Notes under the pieces: generated by a model | The model's input: only the letters and a program-made list of their open reading frames with translations | What the model was told of the DNA's origin: nothing | Database searches by the model: none | Translations under genes and position numbers: made by a program | Sequence record: MH464253 | Length of the DNA stretch: 40,387 nucleotides | Source of the DNA: Shigella phage SFPH2 | Direction: 5' to 3' (one strand) | Shown here: piece by piece, positions 26,370 to 34,481 of the stretch | Layout: every line of letters starts with the position of its first letter | How positions within the stretch are numbered: the stretch's first letter is position 1

Positions 26370-27239
26370 CTACATGGAGGGTGTCCACAGAATGACCTCC
26401 TTGGACTTAGGGTCGTAGTCAGATGCCCGACAGATGCGAGCGACCTGAGCTTGGACCAGTAGTTCCTGTTCGGTCATCCCGGCTTTAGCAGCCAGAGTCA
26501 CCATGCAGTCCCACAACGTCTGGTCTTCGCGCTTCGGATACTTCTTCCACTCTACCTTGAGCTGACCTTTGTTCTTACCAGTCTTCAGCTCGCGGGTCTC
26601 TTGCACGAAGTAGTACGGCTCGTCAAGGAAAGCACGGGTAGTGTCCTCACCGTACCCCGGAATACCGCCGTAACCATCCGTCATGTCACCCTTGATGGTC
26701 TGCTCCATGTGCCAGTAATCTGCCTCGGCAGTCGTGTGGCTCAGGATTTCACCAGTGGTTAACCAGAAGAACTCACAGTTCGGGATAGTCTTGAAGTCCT
26801 TATCACAGGACACCAGCACCGCATGGTCGCAGCCCACAATCTGAGGGCGCGTACCAATGATTCCCATACAGTCATCTCCCTCAAGCGTTGGCTTCAGGAA
26901 GCTGTTGAACCGTGGGTCAGCCATCACTTCAGCTACGAACTTCTTGTATCCTACAGGCTTTCGAGAACCTTTACGGTTGGCCTTATAGGTGGGAAGTACG
27001 TCCTTGCGCCAGTTGGCGTCATCGGTGAAGCACATCACAATCTTAGCGTCTTTCCACGCCTTGCGCTTCTTGACGATTTCAGCGATGGTGTTCTCAAGGA
27101 TACGACGGGCTTTCTCGTGGTCGCAGATAAGGGTCCAGATGTCGTCGCCCCAGTCAGTCTCATCTTCAGCCGCAGCCATAGAGGAGAAGACAAGATAGTC
27201 GCCATCAAGCACCAGAGCTATCTTCTTCTCAGAACCCAT
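26370..27239 (-). CDS. gp6: 5'-3' exonuclease
   Basis: 289 aa; DGD.LVF...CDH.KAR.ILE, NWRK...YKANRK..KPVGY, LEGDD.MG.I, SCDKDFKTIPNC.F.W.TTG, KGD.TDGY.GI.G, TLWDC...AKAGMTE match T7 gp6. Confidence 0.95.
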   Translation of the reverse strand: MGSEKKIALVLDGDYLVFSSMAAAEDETDWGDDIWTLICDHEKARRILENTIAEIVKKRKAWKDAKIVMCFTDDANWRKDVLPTYKANRKGSRKPVGYKKFVAEVMADPRFNSFLKPTLEGDDCMGIIGTRPQIVGCDHAVLVSCDKDFKTIPNCEFFWLTTGEILSHTTAEADYWHMEQTIKGDMTDGYGGIPGYGEDTTRAFLDEPYYFVQETRELKTGKNKGQLKVEWKKYPKREDQTLWDCMVTLAAKAGMTEQELLVQAQVARICRASDYDPKSKEVILWTPSM

Positions 27240-27678
27240 CGTCCAGACCTCCCGTAGCCATAGTGACCGTAGCTGGCATCAAGGAAACTTTAGGCTCCTC
27301 AATACGTTCCAGAGTTACCTCAGGCTTCAGCCATTTGTTGGCGAACTCATGGGCCATGTCATTGTCCTCTGAGTTGAGGTGTGACATCAGGCTCCAGAAG
27401 TTTGAAGACATCTCGGTCTCCTTCTCAACCGGGCGATATACGCCCCAGTCATTTACCTCTGAGCCGTAGCTGTCGCCCCACATACCACTGGCTACGATGG
27501 TCAGGCCGATGAACGGACGCCACTCGTAAGCCTCAGAGGGAGACTCGGCGTATGACTCAACGTCCTTCTCGGTCAGGGTGTATGACCAAGATGCGTAGAA
27601 CTCAGCGTACTTTCGGTGCTCCTTCTCGCACTCGCCCATTTCAAGGACCAGCTCTTTCAGACTTTCAGGTATCTTCAT
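27229..27678 (-). CDS. Acidic, aromatic-rich hypothetical protein (149 aa) at the gp5.9 locus
   Basis: ATG at 27678 in ATGA overlap with gp5.7 stop, GGAGG SD; about 29 Asp/Glu vs 13 Lys/Arg, many Trp/Tyr; track start at 27732 lies inside gp5.7. Confidence 0.6.
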   Translation of the reverse strand: MKIPESLKELVLEMGECEKEHRKYAEFYASWSYTLTEKDVESYAESPSEAYEWRPFIGLTIVASGMWGDSYGSEVNDWGVYRPVEKETEMSSNFWSLMSHLNSEDNDMAHEFANKWLKPEVTLERIEEPKVSLMPATVTMATGGLDDGF

Positions 27679-27884
27679 AGACAGCCTCCGTGTTGATTCA
27701 GGAACTTGGTGCCAGCAGCGGTAATCTCCCACGCACCGTTGTTACGCCCATCCATAGACAGGCAGCTTAGATGTCCACGACTCGCAGCCTCAGCCACAAG
27801 TGCAGCGTTGTTGCGCACATAGTTGGACTGAAAGGTCTTCGGGCAGGACTTAAGGGCCGCTAGGACCCGTAAGTATTCACTCAT
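27675..27884 (-). CDS. gp5.7: gp5.7 protein
   Basis: 69 aa; MSEYLRVLAALKSCPKTFQSNYVRNNAALVAEAASRGH.SCL...GRN.GAWEITA.GT.FL...GGC near-identical to T7 gp5.7. Confidence 0.92.
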   Translation of the reverse strand: MSEYLRVLAALKSCPKTFQSNYVRNNAALVAEAASRGHLSCLSMDGRNNGAWEITAAGTKFLNQHGGCL

Positions 27885-28165
27885 TGCTTGACCTCGAATC
27901 GCAGGTTGGATACTCCGAACTGGTCATCACCAAAGGCGTCTACCAGCTCTTCCTTGACGGTCTTCTTGACGGCAATTTCAAGGGCAGACTCAGGACCTGA
28001 CTCGATTGCTGTTTTGACCAGAGCCAACTGAAGTCCATCCAGCTTCTCACCCTCAGCATAGGCTTTAGTCATCTCAGCAAGCTGACGACACCTTGTCTCT
28101 TCTTCCTTTGAGCTAACAACCATCTTCAGGTCAAAACTCACACGAATACGTTTAGTAATAGCCAT
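27881..28165 (-). CDS. gp5.5-position protein (94 aa)
   Basis: Synteny and size similar to T7 gp5.5 (H-NS-binding protein); sequence only weakly recalled. Confidence 0.55.
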   Translation of the reverse strand: MAITKRIRVSFDLKMVVSSKEEETRCRQLAEMTKAYAEGEKLDGLQLALVKTAIESGPESALEIAVKKTVKEELVDAFGDDQFGVSNLRFEVKQ

Positions 28166-28170
28166 TAGTG

Positions 28171-28653
28171 TTACTCCTGTTTAAATTGTCCGTACTTCTT
28201 GTCAGACGTTAAGTTTATACACATAGAGGTCTTGACTCTAACCTCTTCAGTGAACGGTATAAGCCAGAGGCAATCCTGATAAACAACCGCTAGTAGGTCG
28301 ATGTCTCCCGGACTGTAAGTTGGCTTACCGCATCCTCCCAGCCTTACCTGTATGCTATTACAGTTCTTCAGCTTCGTTCCGGTCTTGACCTGAACCCTAG
28401 TAAGGGTCCCGTCTATATCGACCACCAAGTCTGCCTTTGACTGCGTGAATGCTGGGAGGAATACTTGATGCCCTTTGGCTGTCAGCCTATAGCTTACATA
28501 TAGCTCACTAGCAGCACCAGTGAAGTGCTGGGACTTTCCGTCAATGGCATTCTTTCCACGTTGGTCCAATCTTACCCTCCGTATCAAGTTCACACTTGAA
28601 GTTATAGAAGCGTCCGACCTCACGCATAGCCTCTTGAGCAATACGGACGACAT
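28171..28653 (-). CDS. Hypothetical protein overlapping DNA polymerase 3' end (160 aa); possible PD-(D/E)xK-like motif
   Basis: Only ATG (28653, SD AGGAGA) lies 113 nt inside gene 5 in another frame; SELYV...ADLVVDIDG...VQVK spacing resembles E..D..(E/Q)xK nuclease core. Confidence 0.45.
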   Translation of the reverse strand: MSSVLLKRLCVRSDASITSSVNLIRRVRLDQRGKNAIDGKSQHFTGAASELYVSYRLTAKGHQVFLPAFTQSKADLVVDIDGTLTRVQVKTGTKLKNCNSIQVRLGGCGKPTYSPGDIDLLAVVYQDCLWLIPFTEEVRVKTSMCINLTSDKKYGQFKQE

Positions 28654-30712
28654 CTTCTGCTATCTCCTGAGTACGACATGCAATCTGCAATTCATCGTGA
28701 ATCCAAGCCATTAGCGCAAAGTCACCGTCCCATCCGTTACCATAGCCAGCCTCTTCAAGTTTCTTCTCAGTCAGTACCATCCAGTGCTTACATACCACCG
28801 CACCGTCACCCTGAAGTAAGGCGTTAAGTGCTGAGTGTGGAGACCGGATGTGGATACGTCTACCGTCCAGACCTTTAAGCCAGCGGCGTTTCCACTTCAC
28901 GATGTTCTCACCGTCTACCCACTTGGACTCGGAGATGAGCGTGTTTTGCACCGCCTCTCGCAGGTCCTTGATAGCTGGTGTACCCTCAATGAATTTCTTC
29001 ATCAGGGCGGAACCTTCCTTCTTACCACCGCCAACTATCAGCCCAATCTTCGCGGCCCCTGCACCATACAGGAACGCATAGATGAACGTCTTGGCGTTGT
29101 TACGGAAAGCATCGTGGTCGTGGTTAGACTTGTCGCGTGGGATGTTAGGTGCTAACCCGGCGTTGACCGCATTAGCCCAGTGGATGTCTCCATCGACCAC
29201 AGTCTTCGCATATTCACCACCATCGAACGGGGACGCACGGTTCCCCAGACAGCGGAGTTCAAGACCTGAGGCATCGACGCCCACCTGAATCCAAGGGTCA
29301 GGCTTACCAGCGTTCTGGTTCCACTTGGCACCGAAAGCGCTACGGCATATTTCACCCCAAGGAGCACCGTTAGCCGGGACCTGAGCCATGTTCGGGGAAC
29401 TGTGAGTCGCACGTCCGGTTACAGCACCACAGGGGTTAATCGACCCGTGCATCCTTCCGTCAGGACCCACAAGTCGAAGCCATGCGTTCTTACCTTCAGC
29501 CGCCTGACCAATGCGCTTCTGGACCACCAGATACTCACGGACCAGCTCTACGCAAGCCTGAGCTTCTGGGTCTGCCAGCTTAACGTGCTCCAGAGTTTCG
29601 TCATCACACTTAGGCTTCCCTGTATCCGTGAACTCAGTAGGCTCCCAGCCCCGGTCCATCAGAACCTTAGCTAAGTGGTCGCCACTACCCGGATTAAACT
29701 CAACGAAGGTAATCGGTGTGAACGGTGCGCCTTCCATCGTATCTCGTGAGTCTCGTTCGCAAGGCTCCAGACCTAAGCGCTGAGCTTTGTTCTTCGGCTT
29801 CTTGAAGATTGCCCCTACCTTCGGGTAGATGACTCGCGGGTATTTCGGCAGGTCTACCCCGGTTCGTGGGTGCTTGAAGAACTCTTTGCCACCCTTAGGT
29901 GAATACCAACTACCGAACGTCGACCGCAGCTTATCCAAAAGCTCAGCACGTTTGACTGATAGCTCACGATACAAGCCCTCGACTATCTCCGAGTTCATCG
30001 GGTAGCCGTTACGTTCCATCTTAGCGCATGTCCACGCAGCATCATGTTCGAGACGCAGTGCGTACACAGCCTCAAGTCCGGCCTCAGGAGACCCAAAGTA
30101 GAACTTGTCAGTCAGGAACTTCTTGAACAAGGCCAAAGTGACCACAACGTCTTGGACGTTATAGTCCAGCATCTCTTGGCTTGGGAATAACCACTCGTCA
30201 CCAGCCTTATATTCGATACCTTCTGCCTTGCACTTGGCAATGTAATCGGTCTTGTACTCACCCTTCATCTCACCGAGACGGTAGCCCCATGCTTCAAGAG
30301 ACTGTCGTCCCATCATCTTAGGGGGGAGACGACCAGCTTTCACAGCACCCATGTCCGAGAACTTAATGTTCGGGTACATCAGGCGGCCCATGACAAGTGT
30401 GTCAATCATCTTGTGCTTCGGGAAGTTGAAACGTTTACCGAAATACTTACGCTTCAGGATGTCAATAGCCGGGACGTCATAGTTAATCCCGTTATGGAAG
30501 ACCAGAAGCCCATGCGGCGTGGCTGCAATCTCTTCTACCTTCTGCACATACTCTTTGAAGCCGCCGACGATACCTACCATCGGAGCTACCCCATACTTCA
30601 GGGTCTCATTCGACTCGGCGTTAATCAGGACCCCACAGTGGAACTGAGAGACGGTATCAAGAAGACCGTTGGTCTCGATGTCCGAACCCCAGATATTCTG
30701 TAAGTCAATCAT
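28541..30712 (-). CDS. gp5: DNA polymerase (family A, T7 gp5-type)
   Basis: 723 aa; DIE.N.LL, FHNG..YDVPA, YNVQDVVVT, HPRTG..LPKYP, IFKKPKNKAQR, GVDASGLELRC, AKTFIYAFLYGAG, WIHDE.Q..CRT, ends TWKECH as T7 ends WAICH. Confidence 0.97.
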   Translation of the reverse strand: MIDLQNIWGSDIETNGLLDTVSQFHCGVLINAESNETLKYGVAPMVGIVGGFKEYVQKVEEIAATPHGLLVFHNGINYDVPAIDILKRKYFGKRFNFPKHKMIDTLVMGRLMYPNIKFSDMGAVKAGRLPPKMMGRQSLEAWGYRLGEMKGEYKTDYIAKCKAEGIEYKAGDEWLFPSQEMLDYNVQDVVVTLALFKKFLTDKFYFGSPEAGLEAVYALRLEHDAAWTCAKMERNGYPMNSEIVEGLYRELSVKRAELLDKLRSTFGSWYSPKGGKEFFKHPRTGVDLPKYPRVIYPKVGAIFKKPKNKAQRLGLEPCERDSRDTMEGAPFTPITFVEFNPGSGDHLAKVLMDRGWEPTEFTDTGKPKCDDETLEHVKLADPEAQACVELVREYLVVQKRIGQAAEGKNAWLRLVGPDGRMHGSINPCGAVTGRATHSSPNMAQVPANGAPWGEICRSAFGAKWNQNAGKPDPWIQVGVDASGLELRCLGNRASPFDGGEYAKTVVDGDIHWANAVNAGLAPNIPRDKSNHDHDAFRNNAKTFIYAFLYGAGAAKIGLIVGGGKKEGSALMKKFIEGTPAIKDLREAVQNTLISESKWVDGENIVKWKRRWLKGLDGRRIHIRSPHSALNALLQGDGAVVCKHWMVLTEKKLEEAGYGNGWDGDFALMAWIHDELQIACRTQEIAEDVVRIAQEAMREVGRFYNFKCELDTEGKIGPTWKECH

Positions 30713-30724
30713 AATGTCTCCTAT

Positions 30725-30768
30725 AGTCTAATCATAAAGGCCACTCGAAGTGAATGGCCTTGAGTCTA
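30725..30768 (-). promoter_or_regulatory. Conserved RNA hairpin E directly downstream of promoter (transcript 5' stem-loop / candidate RNase III site)
   Basis: GGCCAUUC-ACUUC-GAGUGGCC with G-U wobble, flanks AGACUCAAGG / CCUUUAUGAUUAG as in hairpins C and D. Confidence 0.5.
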
Positions 30769-30788
30769 TCCTACAGTGATAGTTAAGC
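30766..30788 (-). promoter_or_regulatory. Phage RNAP promoter variant upstream of DNA polymerase: CTTAACTATCACTGTAGGATAGA
   Basis: Consensus with one substitution (TGTAGG for TATAGG). Confidence 0.7.
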
Positions 30789-31316
30789 CTTAGGTGGAGT
30801 CATGTCCGGGACCAATGGCTCTATGGTCTCCATAGGTTCAACTACAGGACTCGCGCCAGATGATACGCGCACTTCTGGGTAGCTTTGTTCCATGCTACTG
30901 ACTGGAACCGCTGGTCCTTCAGGATGTTGCTCAACACTGTAGCTTCGTGGTGATACCACTTCGCCAGCGAAAGGTGATACTTGGACTTTAACTTCTCGCA
31001 CAACCTCTTTAACATCTTGGTGCTCCTCGAATGGGTAATAGGACAGAACGTCACCTTCCAGCTTGAACCCTACGAGGCCCATCTGGTCGAGACGCTGAGT
31101 GATTTGATACTTCGTGCTGTCAACCTCTTGGTCTCCCAAGTTGCCACGCAGCGTCCCAATGTCAATCGACCCTTGGACCATAGCCGTAGAGATGAACAGC
31201 AGCGCCCTGCCCAGAGTTCGACCAGTGCAGCGAGAGGTGAAGACTTCAAGGCCCTCCTTCGGGCCAAGCTCAAGTTGCAATTCGGTCAGGGTCTTACCGT
31301 TGATTAAGTTTCGCAT
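30783..31316 (-). CDS. Hypothetical protein (177 aa) between primase-helicase and DNA polymerase; Pro/Val/Ser-rich C-terminal tail
   Basis: ATG at 31316 (MRNLINGK) with AGGAGA SD; track start at 31382 is inside gene 4. Confidence 0.6.
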   Translation of the reverse strand: MRNLINGKTLTELQLELGPKEGLEVFTSRCTGRTLGRALLFISTAMVQGSIDIGTLRGNLGDQEVDSTKYQITQRLDQMGLVGFKLEGDVLSYYPFEEHQDVKEVVREVKVQVSPFAGEVVSPRSYSVEQHPEGPAVPVSSMEQSYPEVRVSSGASPVVEPMETIEPLVPDMTPPKA

Positions 31317-31360: not shown

Positions 31361-33067
<1,707 letters not shown>

Positions 33068-33818: not shown

Positions 33819-34032
33819 TGTACACCACCAGCTCGACGATTACGAGATTCAGGTGAGACTTGAAGCGCTCGCTAACGGTCGTGTGCATCTGGAGGCGCTT
33901 ATGGTTGAAGACATGCGAGTTGCTAATCTTCACGTACACTTCGTCCGGTCGACCATGCACGATGAACGCGTAGCCCACCGGGATTTTATCAATGGTCAGT
34001 CGCTCGCGGACTACCTGCACTTCTTTAGTCAT
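33808..34032 (-). CDS. Hypothetical protein (74 aa) inserted between endonuclease I and amidase
   Basis: ATG overlapping gp3 stop with AAGGAG SD 7 nt upstream; no equivalent gene recalled in T7. Confidence 0.5.
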   Translation of the reverse strand: MTKEVQVVRERLTIDKIPVGYAFIVHGRPDEVYVKISNSHVFNHKRLQMHTTVSERFKSHLNLVIVELVVYNGK

Positions 34033-34481
34033 TTCTTAGCTCCTTTCTTCGGGATGAGTATACCTGAGGGCAGACGCACAGTCGCCTCTTTCAGCCACTC
34101 AACCGGGATAAACTTGTCGGCAAACTTAAAGCCGTTCTTTTCGCACCATGCGCCATACGTGGTCGGGGACCCTTTGTACAGCTTGGAGCGGGAGGACGAG
34201 AACACGAACCGGATGTCCAGCTCAGGGTGTTGCTCGCGCACCAGCATATGCTTCTTACGGTCCTCACTGTCGAAGATACCTTTGGTCTCGACGATGATTC
34301 CGTTCGGAAGGATGAAGTCTGGTGTGTACTTGTGGTCGGAAGCCGGAATCACATAGTTGATATAATGGCTTTCGTACTCCGCTTTGACGCCGTTCTGCTC
34401 CAGCCACTGCTGGTTCTTGGCCTCAAGTCCAGAGCGGTAGGCACCCACAGAGTGCCCCCGTTTTGGTGTCCATGCAGCCAC
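34029..34481 (-). CDS. gp3: Endonuclease I (Holliday-junction resolvase)
   Basis: 150 aa; FRSGLE, YVIPAS.H.YTPDF.LPNGI.VETKG, DRKKH.L.REQHPELDIR.VFSSSR.KLYKGSPT.YG..CEK.G.KFADK.IP.EW.KE match T7 gp3. Confidence 0.96.
   Translation of the reverse strand: MAAWTPKRGHSVGAYRSGLEAKNQQWLEQNGVKAEYESHYINYVIPASDHKYTPDFILPNGIIVETKGIFDSEDRKKHMLVREQHPELDIRFVFSSSRSKLYKGSPTTYGAWCEKNGFKFADKFIPVEWLKEATVRLPSGILIPKKGAKK

What the first reader, a model, noticed from the sequence alone, without database searches (positions are those of the whole stretch)
28171..28653. 160-aa ORF overlapping the 3' end of the DNA polymerase gene with nuclease-like motif spacing
Its only possible start (ATG 28653, SD AGGAGA) lies 113 nt inside gene 5 in another frame, so the two genes must be co-translated from overlapping sequence. 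The product has E(LYV)...D(LVV)DID...(Q)VK spacing reminiscent of PD-(D/E)xK endonucleases. It could be a small nuclease or homing-endonuclease-like accessory gene.
Basis: partly seen in the sequence, partly recalled or inferred. Interest (0 to 1): 0.5.

Follow-up and report, generated by a model that had tools for sequence, protein, structure and literature searches.

The report
T7 gene 5.3-type homing endonuclease gene
The ORF is a real small nuclease gene, the counterpart of phage T7 gene 5.3 and a relative of the homing endonuclease I-Ssp6803I. It sits as an optional, apparently mobile insert just after the DNA polymerase gene, and it most likely starts at a TTG 29 nt inside that gene, not at the ATG 113 nt inside.

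Summary
The window is a T7-like (Kayfunavirus) phage genome read on the minus strand. The 160-codon ORF 28171-28653(-) exists as described, and the nuclease guess is correct. It matches Pfam PDDEXK_5 above threshold. A family profile hits I-Ssp6803I (PDB 2OST) at E=2.8e-10, and the AlphaFold model's best structural match is 2OST. E, D and Q-x-K are conserved. It is the ortholog of T7 gene 5.3 (48% identity, same position).

The "only possible start" claim is wrong. ATG 28653 is missing in most close relatives. In three of them a TAG closes the frame 5 codons upstream of a conserved TTG (28569), which follows GGAGG by 6 nt. The 84 nt between ATG and TTG evolve as polymerase codons only. The likely product is 132 aa, with a 29-nt overlap.

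Among 29 related loci the polymerase-5.5 junction is empty in 13. It carries this gene in 5, a deleted remnant in 1 and an HNH endonuclease ORF in 3. Occupied alleles carry recoded polymerase tails and mosaic flanks. Best reading: a free-standing homing endonuclease gene. This is an ordinary member of a known family, and cleavage is untested.

The parts
28171..28569 (-). Preferred CDS of the endonuclease: 132 aa, TTG start 28569-28567, TAA stop 28173-28171. Ortholog of T7 gene 5.3.
   Evidence: Pfam PF11645; tblastn to T7 5.3 at 48% identity, E=4e-24; TTG is the only start candidate in L005, L036 and L038; dN/dS 0.03-0.23.
28576..28580 (-). Shine-Dalgarno GGAGG, 6 nt upstream of the TTG, lying inside polymerase codons (ACG GAG GGT).
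   Evidence: Sequence. Present in all 5 PD-(D/E)xK-carrying, 3 HNH-carrying and 1 remnant alleles of the 29-locus survey; all 13 empty-site alleles have CGAAGG instead. Zappy (L037), a carrier fetched later, has only GAGG.
28541..28569 (-). 29-nt overlap between the endonuclease CDS (first 10 codons, MDQRGKNAID) and the last polymerase codons plus the TGA stop.
28570..28653 (-). Most likely polymerase coding sequence only.
   Evidence: ATG absent in L001, L005 and L008. Between close relatives, substitutions are synonymous in the polymerase frame and non-synonymous in the ORF frame, e.g. WIN-L008: 6 syn/0 non versus 0 syn/7 non.
28504..28506 (-). Codon of conserved Glu (E22 of the 132-aa form, E50 of the 160-aa form).
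   Evidence: At least 90% conserved in 56 homologs.
28429..28431 (-). Codon of conserved Asp (D47). Aligns with the D of YDLVF in 2OST.
28384..28392 (-). Codons Q60-V61-K62. Align with the QVK of 2OST.
28541..28555 (-). Recoded polymerase tail AAAGAATGCCATTGA (K-E-C-H-stop). Empty-site phages have AAGGAGTGTCACTAA.
28165..28179 (-). Degenerate second copy of the polymerase tail (CAGGAGTAACACTAA) at the 3' edge of the insert. It supplies the endonuclease stop codon and keeps the GGAG and TAATG context of gene 5.5.
28166..28540 (-). 375-nt insert relative to empty-site relatives, in which the polymerase stop overlaps the gene 5.5 start (TAATG).
28570..28885 (-). Mosaic tract at the polymerase 3' end: about 81% identical to SFP20, while the polymerase sequence upstream and the genes downstream of the insert are about 98% identical.
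28541..30712 (-). DNA polymerase (gene 5), 723 aa.
   Evidence: annotated homologs.
27881..28165 (-). Gene 5.5 homolog (H-NS-binding protein family), directly downstream.
   Evidence: the Pfam match is weak.

Best explanation
The locus is a free-standing homing endonuclease gene (HEG) of the PD-(D/E)xK, I-Ssp6803I-like family (Pfam PF11645). It is the Kayfunavirus ortholog of T7 gene 5.3, inserted between the DNA polymerase gene and gene 5.5.

Shown:
- It encodes a protein under purifying selection with the family's fold and its conserved E/D/QxK residues.
- It is optional among close relatives and always sits at the same site.
- Occupied alleles have a synonymously recoded polymerase tail that creates a GGAGG-N6-TTG start inside the polymerase gene.
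- A degenerate copy of the polymerase tail lies at the 3' edge of the insert.
- The flanks are mosaic.

Inferred:
- Translation starts at TTG 28569 on the polymerase mRNA and gives a 132-aa enzyme.
- In mixed infections the enzyme cuts the intact polymerase/5.5 junction (...TGGAAGGAGTGTCACTAATGGCT...) of relatives that lack the gene.
- Repair from the HEG-carrying genome copies in the gene plus a variable length of flanking polymerase sequence (co-conversion).
- The phage's own genome is immune because the site is split by the insert and recoded.
For: Family and fold:
- PF11645 at 42.2 bits against a cut-off of 26.1.
- Profile versus PDB: 2OST at E=2.8e-10, profile positions 8-125 against chain residues 5-130.
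- AlphaFold model with pLDDT 85.1 and pTM 0.79; top Foldseek hits are the 2OST chains at TM 0.68-0.73.
- E22, D47, Q60, V61 and K62 are at least 90% conserved in 56 homologs.

Orthology: T7 gene 5.3 at 48% identity, E=4e-24, itself PF11645, and in the same position between genes 5 and 5.5.

Selection: dN/dS is 0.03-0.23; WIN versus SAKp10309 has 55.8 synonymous and 15.2 non-synonymous differences.

Start codon: see the observation check. Two independent deposits annotate the CDS from this TTG.

Mobility signature:
- In 29 loci the junction is empty in 13, carries this gene in 5, an internally deleted remnant in 1 and an HNH ORF in 3.
- The tail allele ACGGAGGG...AAAGAATGCCATTGA is found with all occupied sites; the allele ACCGAAGG...AAGGAGTGTCACTAA is found with all empty sites.
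- The window equals SFP20 (98%) except for about 316 nt upstream of the insert (81%). YZ1 switches to the HEG-type sequence only about 15 nt before the TTG, yet carries a 98.5% identical protein.

Context elsewhere: homologs sit directly 3' of DNA polymerase genes in Przondovirus, Berlinvirus, Molineuxvirinae and Bruynoghevirus phages, and inside a tRNA cluster in Vibrio phages. These are typical free-standing HEG niches.

Dispensability: T7 gene 5.3 is deletable (PMC12153263, PMC9825161).
Against: - No cleavage activity, target site or biased inheritance has been measured for this gene. I found no such data for T7 gp5.3 in the searchable literature either.
- The link between the tail allele and occupancy could be simple linkage by descent, because the loci are phylogenetically non-independent.
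- The mosaic polymerase tract (28570-28885) also spans the site where relatives carry a group I intron with an HNH ORF (window 28697|28696). Part of that mosaicism could therefore come from the other element or from ordinary recombination.
- TTG is a weak start codon, and nothing here shows translation.
- In the profile alignment the family's conserved Glu aligns with a Gln in the deposited 2OST chain. I could not check whether that chain is a mutant.
Confidence: 0.72

Rival explanations
1. One reading: translation starts at ATG 28653 (SD AGGAGA) and gives a 160-aa protein whose first 38 codons are read from polymerase coding sequence (113-nt overlap).
For: The ATG and an AGGAGA 9 nt upstream are present in the window and in L006. 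One metagenomic gene call (P0001, 160 aa) uses this start.
Against: The ATG is AAG in YZ1, SAKp10309 and L008. The frame is closed by TAG upstream of the TTG in SAKp10309, 6925 and ST37. The 28-residue extension shows no constraint in this frame. The Pfam and family alignments start after it. The AGGAGA is conserved as polymerase codons in all relatives, whether or not they carry the insert.
Confidence: 0.1
2. A domesticated nuclease that serves the phage itself, for example Hjc-like junction resolution, host DNA breakdown or recombination, and is not a selfish mobile gene.
For: The second-best structural matches are the archaeal Holliday junction resolvases Hjc. Purifying selection is strong. 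Placement among replication and recombination genes is conserved.
Against: The gene is absent from 13 of 29 close relatives and replaced by an unrelated HNH ORF in 3. The phage already encodes endonuclease I (34029-34481, PF05367, 1e-80) and a gene 6 exonuclease. T7 5.3 deletions are viable and even rose to dominance in serial transfer (PMC9825161).
Confidence: 0.1
3. An inter-phage competition or anti-defence nuclease. It cuts co-infecting relatives (marker exclusion) or host or plasmid DNA, and its own copying is not the selected effect.
For: The biochemistry would be the same as homing. The PF11645-like fold also occurs in defence effectors: SPARDA structures appear among the fold hits, and there is a weak PADLOC hit at E=0.0026.
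Against: The site-specific presence/absence pattern, the recoded flank and the mosaic tracts are what homing predicts. The PADLOC match is marginal.
Confidence: 0.06
4. A decaying, inactive remnant of a homing endonuclease gene.
For: Remnants do exist at this site. Penshu1 has a 271-nt internal deletion, and truncated products P0007, P0010 and P0011 are on record.
Against: The window copy is full length with all conserved residues, and dN/dS is well below 1.
Confidence: 0.02

Closest known systems
Bacteriophage T7 gene 5.3 protein (118 aa; V01146 16483-16839)
   Same: 48% identical (E=4e-24). Same Pfam family (PF11645). Same position between gene 5 (DNA polymerase) and gene 5.5. Non-essential in T7.
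   Different: T7 5.3 starts 16 nt after the polymerase stop. The window gene starts at a TTG 29 nt inside the polymerase gene and is 14 aa longer. T7 5.3 is present in the T7 records searched, whereas the window gene is patchy among Kayfunavirus relatives.
I-Ssp6803I (PDB 2OST), the PD-(D/E)xK homing endonuclease of the Synechocystis tRNA-fMet group I intron
   Same: Same Pfam family. Profile E=2.8e-10 over nearly the whole chain. Best structural match, TM about 0.7. The D...QxK motif is aligned.
   Different: Only about 16-21% identical. I-Ssp6803I is intron-encoded in a bacterial tRNA gene, whereas this gene is free-standing in a phage with no intron detected. Tetramer formation and a long pseudo-palindromic target (PMC3384342) are untested here.
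Free-standing homing endonuclease genes of T-even phages (seg and mob genes; reviewed in PMC2988022, seen in search only)
   Same: Optional intergenic genes next to conserved genes. From my own knowledge of that literature: they spread by double-strand-break repair with co-conversion of flanking markers, and different endonuclease families can occupy the same slot in different phages.
   Different: Those enzymes are GIY-YIG or HNH proteins. This one has a PD-(D/E)xK fold, and its expression signals are embedded in the coding sequence of the neighbouring essential gene.
HNH endonuclease ORF at the same site in Citrobacter phage SH3 and relatives (L004, L009, L010)
   Same: Same insertion site. 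Same GGAGG-TTG start inside the polymerase gene and the same first 10 codons. It ends in the duplicated polymerase tail (KKECH*, then TAATG of gene 5.5).
   Different: Unrelated nuclease fold (HNH_3, 5e-19).

Membership tests
Pfam PF11645 (PDDEXK_5; I-Ssp6803I-like PD-(D/E)xK endonucleases) | Match to the family HMM above the curated gathering score. | tested here: met
   42.2 bits against a cut-off of 26.1, E=1e-10, profile positions 3-121 of 138.
Pfam PF11645 (PDDEXK_5; I-Ssp6803I-like PD-(D/E)xK endonucleases) | Conserved catalytic-motif residues (acidic residue in helix 1, D, and Q/E-x-K on the following strands). | tested here: met
   E22, D47, Q60 and K62 are present and at least 90% conserved in 56 homologs. 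D47, Q60 and K62 align with the D..QVK of 2OST. A catalytic role is inferred, not assayed.
Pfam PF11645 (PDDEXK_5; I-Ssp6803I-like PD-(D/E)xK endonucleases) | Restriction-endonuclease-like alpha/beta fold resembling I-Ssp6803I. | tested here: met
   AlphaFold model with pLDDT 85.1 and pTM 0.79. Foldseek top hits are 2OST chains A-D at E=9e-8 to 2e-6, TM 0.68-0.73, followed by Hjc. This is a predicted structure.
Pfam PF11645 (PDDEXK_5; I-Ssp6803I-like PD-(D/E)xK endonucleases) | Tetrameric assembly that recognises one long DNA target. | not testable with these tools
   Property of I-Ssp6803I described in PMC3384342. No oligomer modelling or assay was done here.
Group I intron-encoded homing endonuclease | The ORF lies inside a self-splicing intron. 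| tested here: not met
   No Rfam match in 27500-31000 at E<=0.1. The polymerase ORF is uninterrupted and the gene lies after its stop codon. A relative (L024) does carry a group I intron elsewhere in the polymerase gene.
Free-standing homing endonuclease gene (functional class) | Presence/absence polymorphism at one fixed site among closely related genomes. | tested here: met
   13 empty, 5 occupied, 1 remnant and 3 HNH-occupied junctions in 29 loci.
Free-standing homing endonuclease gene (functional class) | Sequence differences at the putative target in HEG-carrying genomes (self-immunity). | tested here: inconclusive
   7 synonymous or stop-codon differences in the last 42 nt of the polymerase gene separate all occupied alleles from all empty alleles. 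The cleavage site is unknown, and linkage by descent could explain the pattern.
Free-standing homing endonuclease gene (functional class) | Co-conversion of flanking markers. | tested here: inconclusive
   Mosaic tracts of about 316 nt (window versus SFP20) and about 45 nt (YZ1) adjoin the insert. This is consistent with co-conversion, but an intron insertion site lies in the same tract.
Free-standing homing endonuclease gene (functional class) | Site-specific cleavage of the HEG-less allele and super-Mendelian inheritance. | not testable with these tools
   Needs enzyme assays and phage crosses.
T7 gene 5.3 orthologous group | Sequence homology plus synteny (gene 5 - 5.3 - 5.5). | tested here: met
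   tblastn at 48% identity, E=4e-24 to T7. Kvp1 '5.3' at 52%, and KP32, with the same gene order.

The most novel reading that the evidence does not exclude
The T7 gene 5.3 family are active free-standing PD-(D/E)xK homing endonucleases that target the 3' end of DNA polymerase genes across several phage lineages (Studiervirinae, Molineuxvirinae, Bruynoghevirus). In Kayfunavirus the polymerase tail acts as a shared docking cassette. Its recoded last codons provide the SD, the TTG start and the first 10 codons, and a duplicated old polymerase tail provides the stop codon and the gene 5.5 ribosome site. Unrelated nuclease bodies (PD-(D/E)xK or HNH) are swapped in between. The selfish element would thus rewrite, and be expressed from, the coding sequence of an essential gene.
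Probability: 0.45. Interest if true: 0.45.

Novelty: new member of a known kind. Interest (0 to 1): 0.28.

Why it matters
Practical value:
- It fixes an annotation that is inconsistent in public records. The gene is missing in YZ1 and Zappy, truncated in ST37, and called from the TTG in 6925 and SAKp10309.
- It assigns a fold and a likely role to the long-uncharacterised T7 gene 5.3 family.

Biological value:
- The locus is a compact natural series of a homing-endonuclease life cycle at one site: empty, occupied, deleted remnant, and replaced by another nuclease family.
- The element's start signals are written into synonymous sites of the polymerase gene.
- If cleavage is shown, this would be a free-standing phage example of the PD-(D/E)xK homing endonuclease class, which is known mainly from one intron-encoded enzyme.
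- It would also explain the mosaicism at the 3' end of Kayfunavirus polymerase genes.

None of this would surprise a specialist.

Tried and rejected
- NCBIfam gave no hit for the 132-aa protein. PHROGs gave only an 'unknown function' family, phrog_5018.
- PADLOC gave one marginal hit (E=0.0026) to the nuclease core of a candidate system, which is not informative.
- RNA folding around the TTG start showed no structure beyond shuffled controls (z=0.10). I therefore make no claim of RBS sequestration.
- Rfam found no intron or other RNA family in 27500-31000.
- The sigma-70 promoter and intrinsic terminator scan of 27800-29000 found nothing above chance.
- A single-sequence phmmer search against PDB was only marginal (E=0.43). 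A family profile was needed to reach E=2.8e-10.
- The primary I-Ssp6803I papers (PMC1864971, PMC3008403) are not held. The catalytic-residue numbering of I-Ssp6803I, and whether the 2OST chain carries a Glu-to-Gln change, could not be checked.
- Literature searches for 'gene 5.3' or 'gp5.3' with endonuclease terms found only dispensability data and no biochemical study.
- A polymerase-endonuclease fusion by frameshifting was considered. The endonuclease frame is +1 relative to the polymerase frame, but nothing supports frameshifting, and relatives with an upstream in-frame TAG or a non-overlapping start (T7, ZK1, Kvp1) do not need it.

Full report
**What the window is.** The ORFs around the finding are those of a T7-like phage read on the minus strand. 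They are primase/helicase (31361-33064), DNA polymerase (28541-30712, 723 aa), the finding, a gene 5.5 homolog (27881-28165), a 5.7-like ORF and the gene 6 exonuclease (26370-27239). Megablast places the region among Kayfunavirus phages (Autographiviridae, Studiervirinae). The best full-length match is Escherichia phage YZ1 at 89.9%.

**Checking the observation.**
- The ORF 28171-28653(-) of 160 aa with an ATG start is real. It overlaps the polymerase ORF by 113 nt in another frame.
- It is not a chance ORF. It matches Pfam PF11645 (PDDEXK_5) at 42.2 bits against a cut-off of 26.1.
- The statement that ATG 28653 is the only possible start does not hold.
  - The frame also contains TTG 28569-28567, preceded by GGAGG (28580-28576) with a 6-nt spacer.
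  - In relatives carrying the same gene (90-98% protein identity), the ATG is AAG in YZ1, SAKp10309 and L008.
  - In SAKp10309, phage 6925 and Salmonella phage ST37 a TAG closes the frame 5 codons upstream of the TTG, which is then the only ATG/GTG/TTG available.
  - Between close relatives, the 84 nt separating the ATG from the TTG change only synonymously in the polymerase frame and non-synonymously in the ORF frame. For WIN-L008 the counts are 6 syn/0 non versus 0 syn/7 non. By contrast, the body of the gene has dN/dS of 0.03-0.23.
  - Family members in other phages begin about 0-20 residues before the conserved HFTGAASE motif, and the Pfam match starts at residue 42 of the 160-aa form.
  - Two deposits (SAKp10309 'endonuclease' and phage 6925) already annotate the CDS from this TTG.
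- I therefore take the gene as 28171-28569, encoding 132 aa with a 29-nt overlap with the polymerase gene. Minor use of the ATG in this particular phage cannot be excluded.

**What the protein is.**
- A profile of 56 homologs hits one solved family, I-Ssp6803I (2OST), at E=2.8e-10 over positions 8-125.
- An AlphaFold model built on that alignment has pLDDT 85.1 and pTM 0.79. Its best PDB matches are the four 2OST chains (TM 0.68-0.73), followed by archaeal Hjc resolvases.
All are at least 90% conserved in the family. D47, Q60 and K62 align with the D...QVK of I-Ssp6803I.
- tblastn shows the gene is the ortholog of T7 gene 5.3 (48% identity, E=4e-24). T7 5.3 lies in the same place between genes 5 and 5.5 and is itself PF11645.
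- T7 5.3 is dispensable (PMC12153263, PMC9825161).

**Evidence that it behaves as a mobile gene.** I collected 29 polymerase-3'-end loci from annotated phages and IMG/VR and classified the polymerase/5.5 junction.
- Empty: 13 loci, where the polymerase stop overlaps the 5.5 start (CACTAATGG).
- This gene: 5 loci, as a 375-nt insert.
- Remnant: Penshu1 keeps a remnant with a 271-nt internal deletion between two TTCACTG repeats, leaving a 27-codon ORF.
- HNH ORF: three loci carry an unrelated HNH ORF at the same site.
- Other inserts: the remaining loci carry other short inserts.

All occupied alleles, including the remnant and the HNH ones, share the polymerase tail ACGGAGGGTAAGATTGG...AAAGA(A/G)TG(C/T)CATTGA. 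All empty alleles have ACCGAAGG(T/G)AAGATTGG...AAGGAGTGTCACTA(A/G). That is seven differences, all synonymous or stop-to-stop, and two of them create the GGAGG.

The 3' edge of the insert (CAGGAGTAACACTAATGG) is a degenerate second copy of the ancestral polymerase tail (AAGGAGTGTCACTAATGG). It supplies the endonuclease stop codon and preserves the ribosome site of gene 5.5. The HNH ORF opens at the same TTG (LDQRGKSAID...) and ends KKECH*, reading that old tail.

**Mosaic flanks.**
- The window's polymerase gene is 98% identical to that of the empty-site phage SFP20 upstream of about 28885 (7 mismatches in 384 nt).
- It is 81% identical from 28885 to the insert (63 mismatches in 340 nt).
- It is 98% identical again immediately downstream of the insert (11 mismatches in about 500 nt).
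- YZ1 has a different polymerase background, switches to the HEG-type sequence only about 15 nt before the TTG, and carries a 98.5% identical protein.
- These are the patterns expected from double-strand-break repair with co-conversion tracts of variable length.
- Caveats: ordinary recombination could give the same picture. A group I intron with an HNH ORF, present in a relative (L024), inserts within the same tract, at window 28697|28696.

**Wider context.** Homologs lie directly 3' of the DNA polymerase gene in KP32 (Przondovirus), Kvp1 (Berlinvirus), ZK1 (Molineuxvirinae) and BUCT640 (Bruynoghevirus, overlapping the end of a split polymerase gene). In a group of Vibrio phages they lie inside the tRNA gene cluster. 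These are classic niches for free-standing homing endonuclease genes.

**Rivals.**
- A housekeeping resolvase-like role is unlikely. The phage has its own endonuclease I (34029-34481, PF05367, 1e-80), and the gene is absent from nearly half of the close relatives.
- A decaying pseudogene is contradicted by the intact motifs and low dN/dS.
- A defence or competition role is biochemically the same act and cannot be separated from homing without crosses.

**Verdict.** The feature is an ordinary but tidy member of a known family, the T7 5.3 / PF11645 group. Cleavage, target site and start codon remain to be shown experimentally.

Noticed in passing
L004 (Citrobacter phage SH3) 2132-2475; also L009 and L010 3372 onward: An HNH endonuclease ORF (HNH_3, E=5e-19) occupies the same polymerase/5.5 site. 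Read from the same GGAGG-TTG inside the polymerase gene it is 113-117 aa and ends KKECH*, reading a perfect copy of the ancestral polymerase tail. The SH3 RefSeq record annotates only a 72-aa fragment from an internal ATG.
   Followed up: partly
L002 (Escherichia phage Penshu1) 2161-2264; window repeats TTCACTG at 28518-28524 and 28248-28254: Penshu1 retains a remnant of the endonuclease gene with a 271-nt internal deletion. The deletion end points coincide with a 7-nt direct repeat (TTCACTG) and leave a 27-codon ORF. This looks like a microhomology-mediated loss step of the HEG life cycle.
   Followed up: partly
L024 3235-3832 (IMGVR_UViG_2974590285_000001); equivalent window position 28697|28696: A relative carries an insertion of about 600 nt in the polymerase gene after the WVH codons of the conserved HDE motif. 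It matches Rfam group I intron RF00028 below the gathering score (35.8 bits against 50, E=2.5e-7, full model length) and contains a 131-aa HNH-like ORF. The window has no intron here, but the site lies inside its mosaic tract.
   Followed up: partly
L007, L017, L018, L021 (about 160-nt insert after the polymerase stop); L037 (Zappy) 805-963: A different small ORF (starting ATGGCTAAAACTTATAG..., about 52 aa) occupies the polymerase/5.5 junction in several relatives. In Zappy it follows the endonuclease gene. Its function is unknown.
   Followed up: no
L033 (Vibrio phage Pylo) 2495-2887: A PF11645-family homolog (36% identity) sits between tRNA-Asp and tRNA-Pro in a large tRNA gene cluster of about 127-kb Vibrio phages, many of which carry it. 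The prototype I-Ssp6803I also targets a tRNA gene.
   Followed up: no
window 27229-27732 (-): A 167-codon ORF lies between the 5.7-like gene and the exonuclease gene and has no Pfam match above threshold. The slot is variable in relatives: 450 nt in YZ1, 333 nt in SFP20, absent in Penshu1 and SAKp10309. This suggests another accessory-gene hot spot.
   Followed up: no
Public records YZ1 (L001), Zappy (L037), ST37 (L038), 6925 (L036), SAKp10309 (L005): Annotation of this gene is inconsistent across deposits. It is not called in YZ1 and Zappy, called as a 72-aa fragment in ST37, and called from the TTG in 6925 and SAKp10309. The likely cause is that the start is a TTG inside the polymerase gene.
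   Followed up: yes
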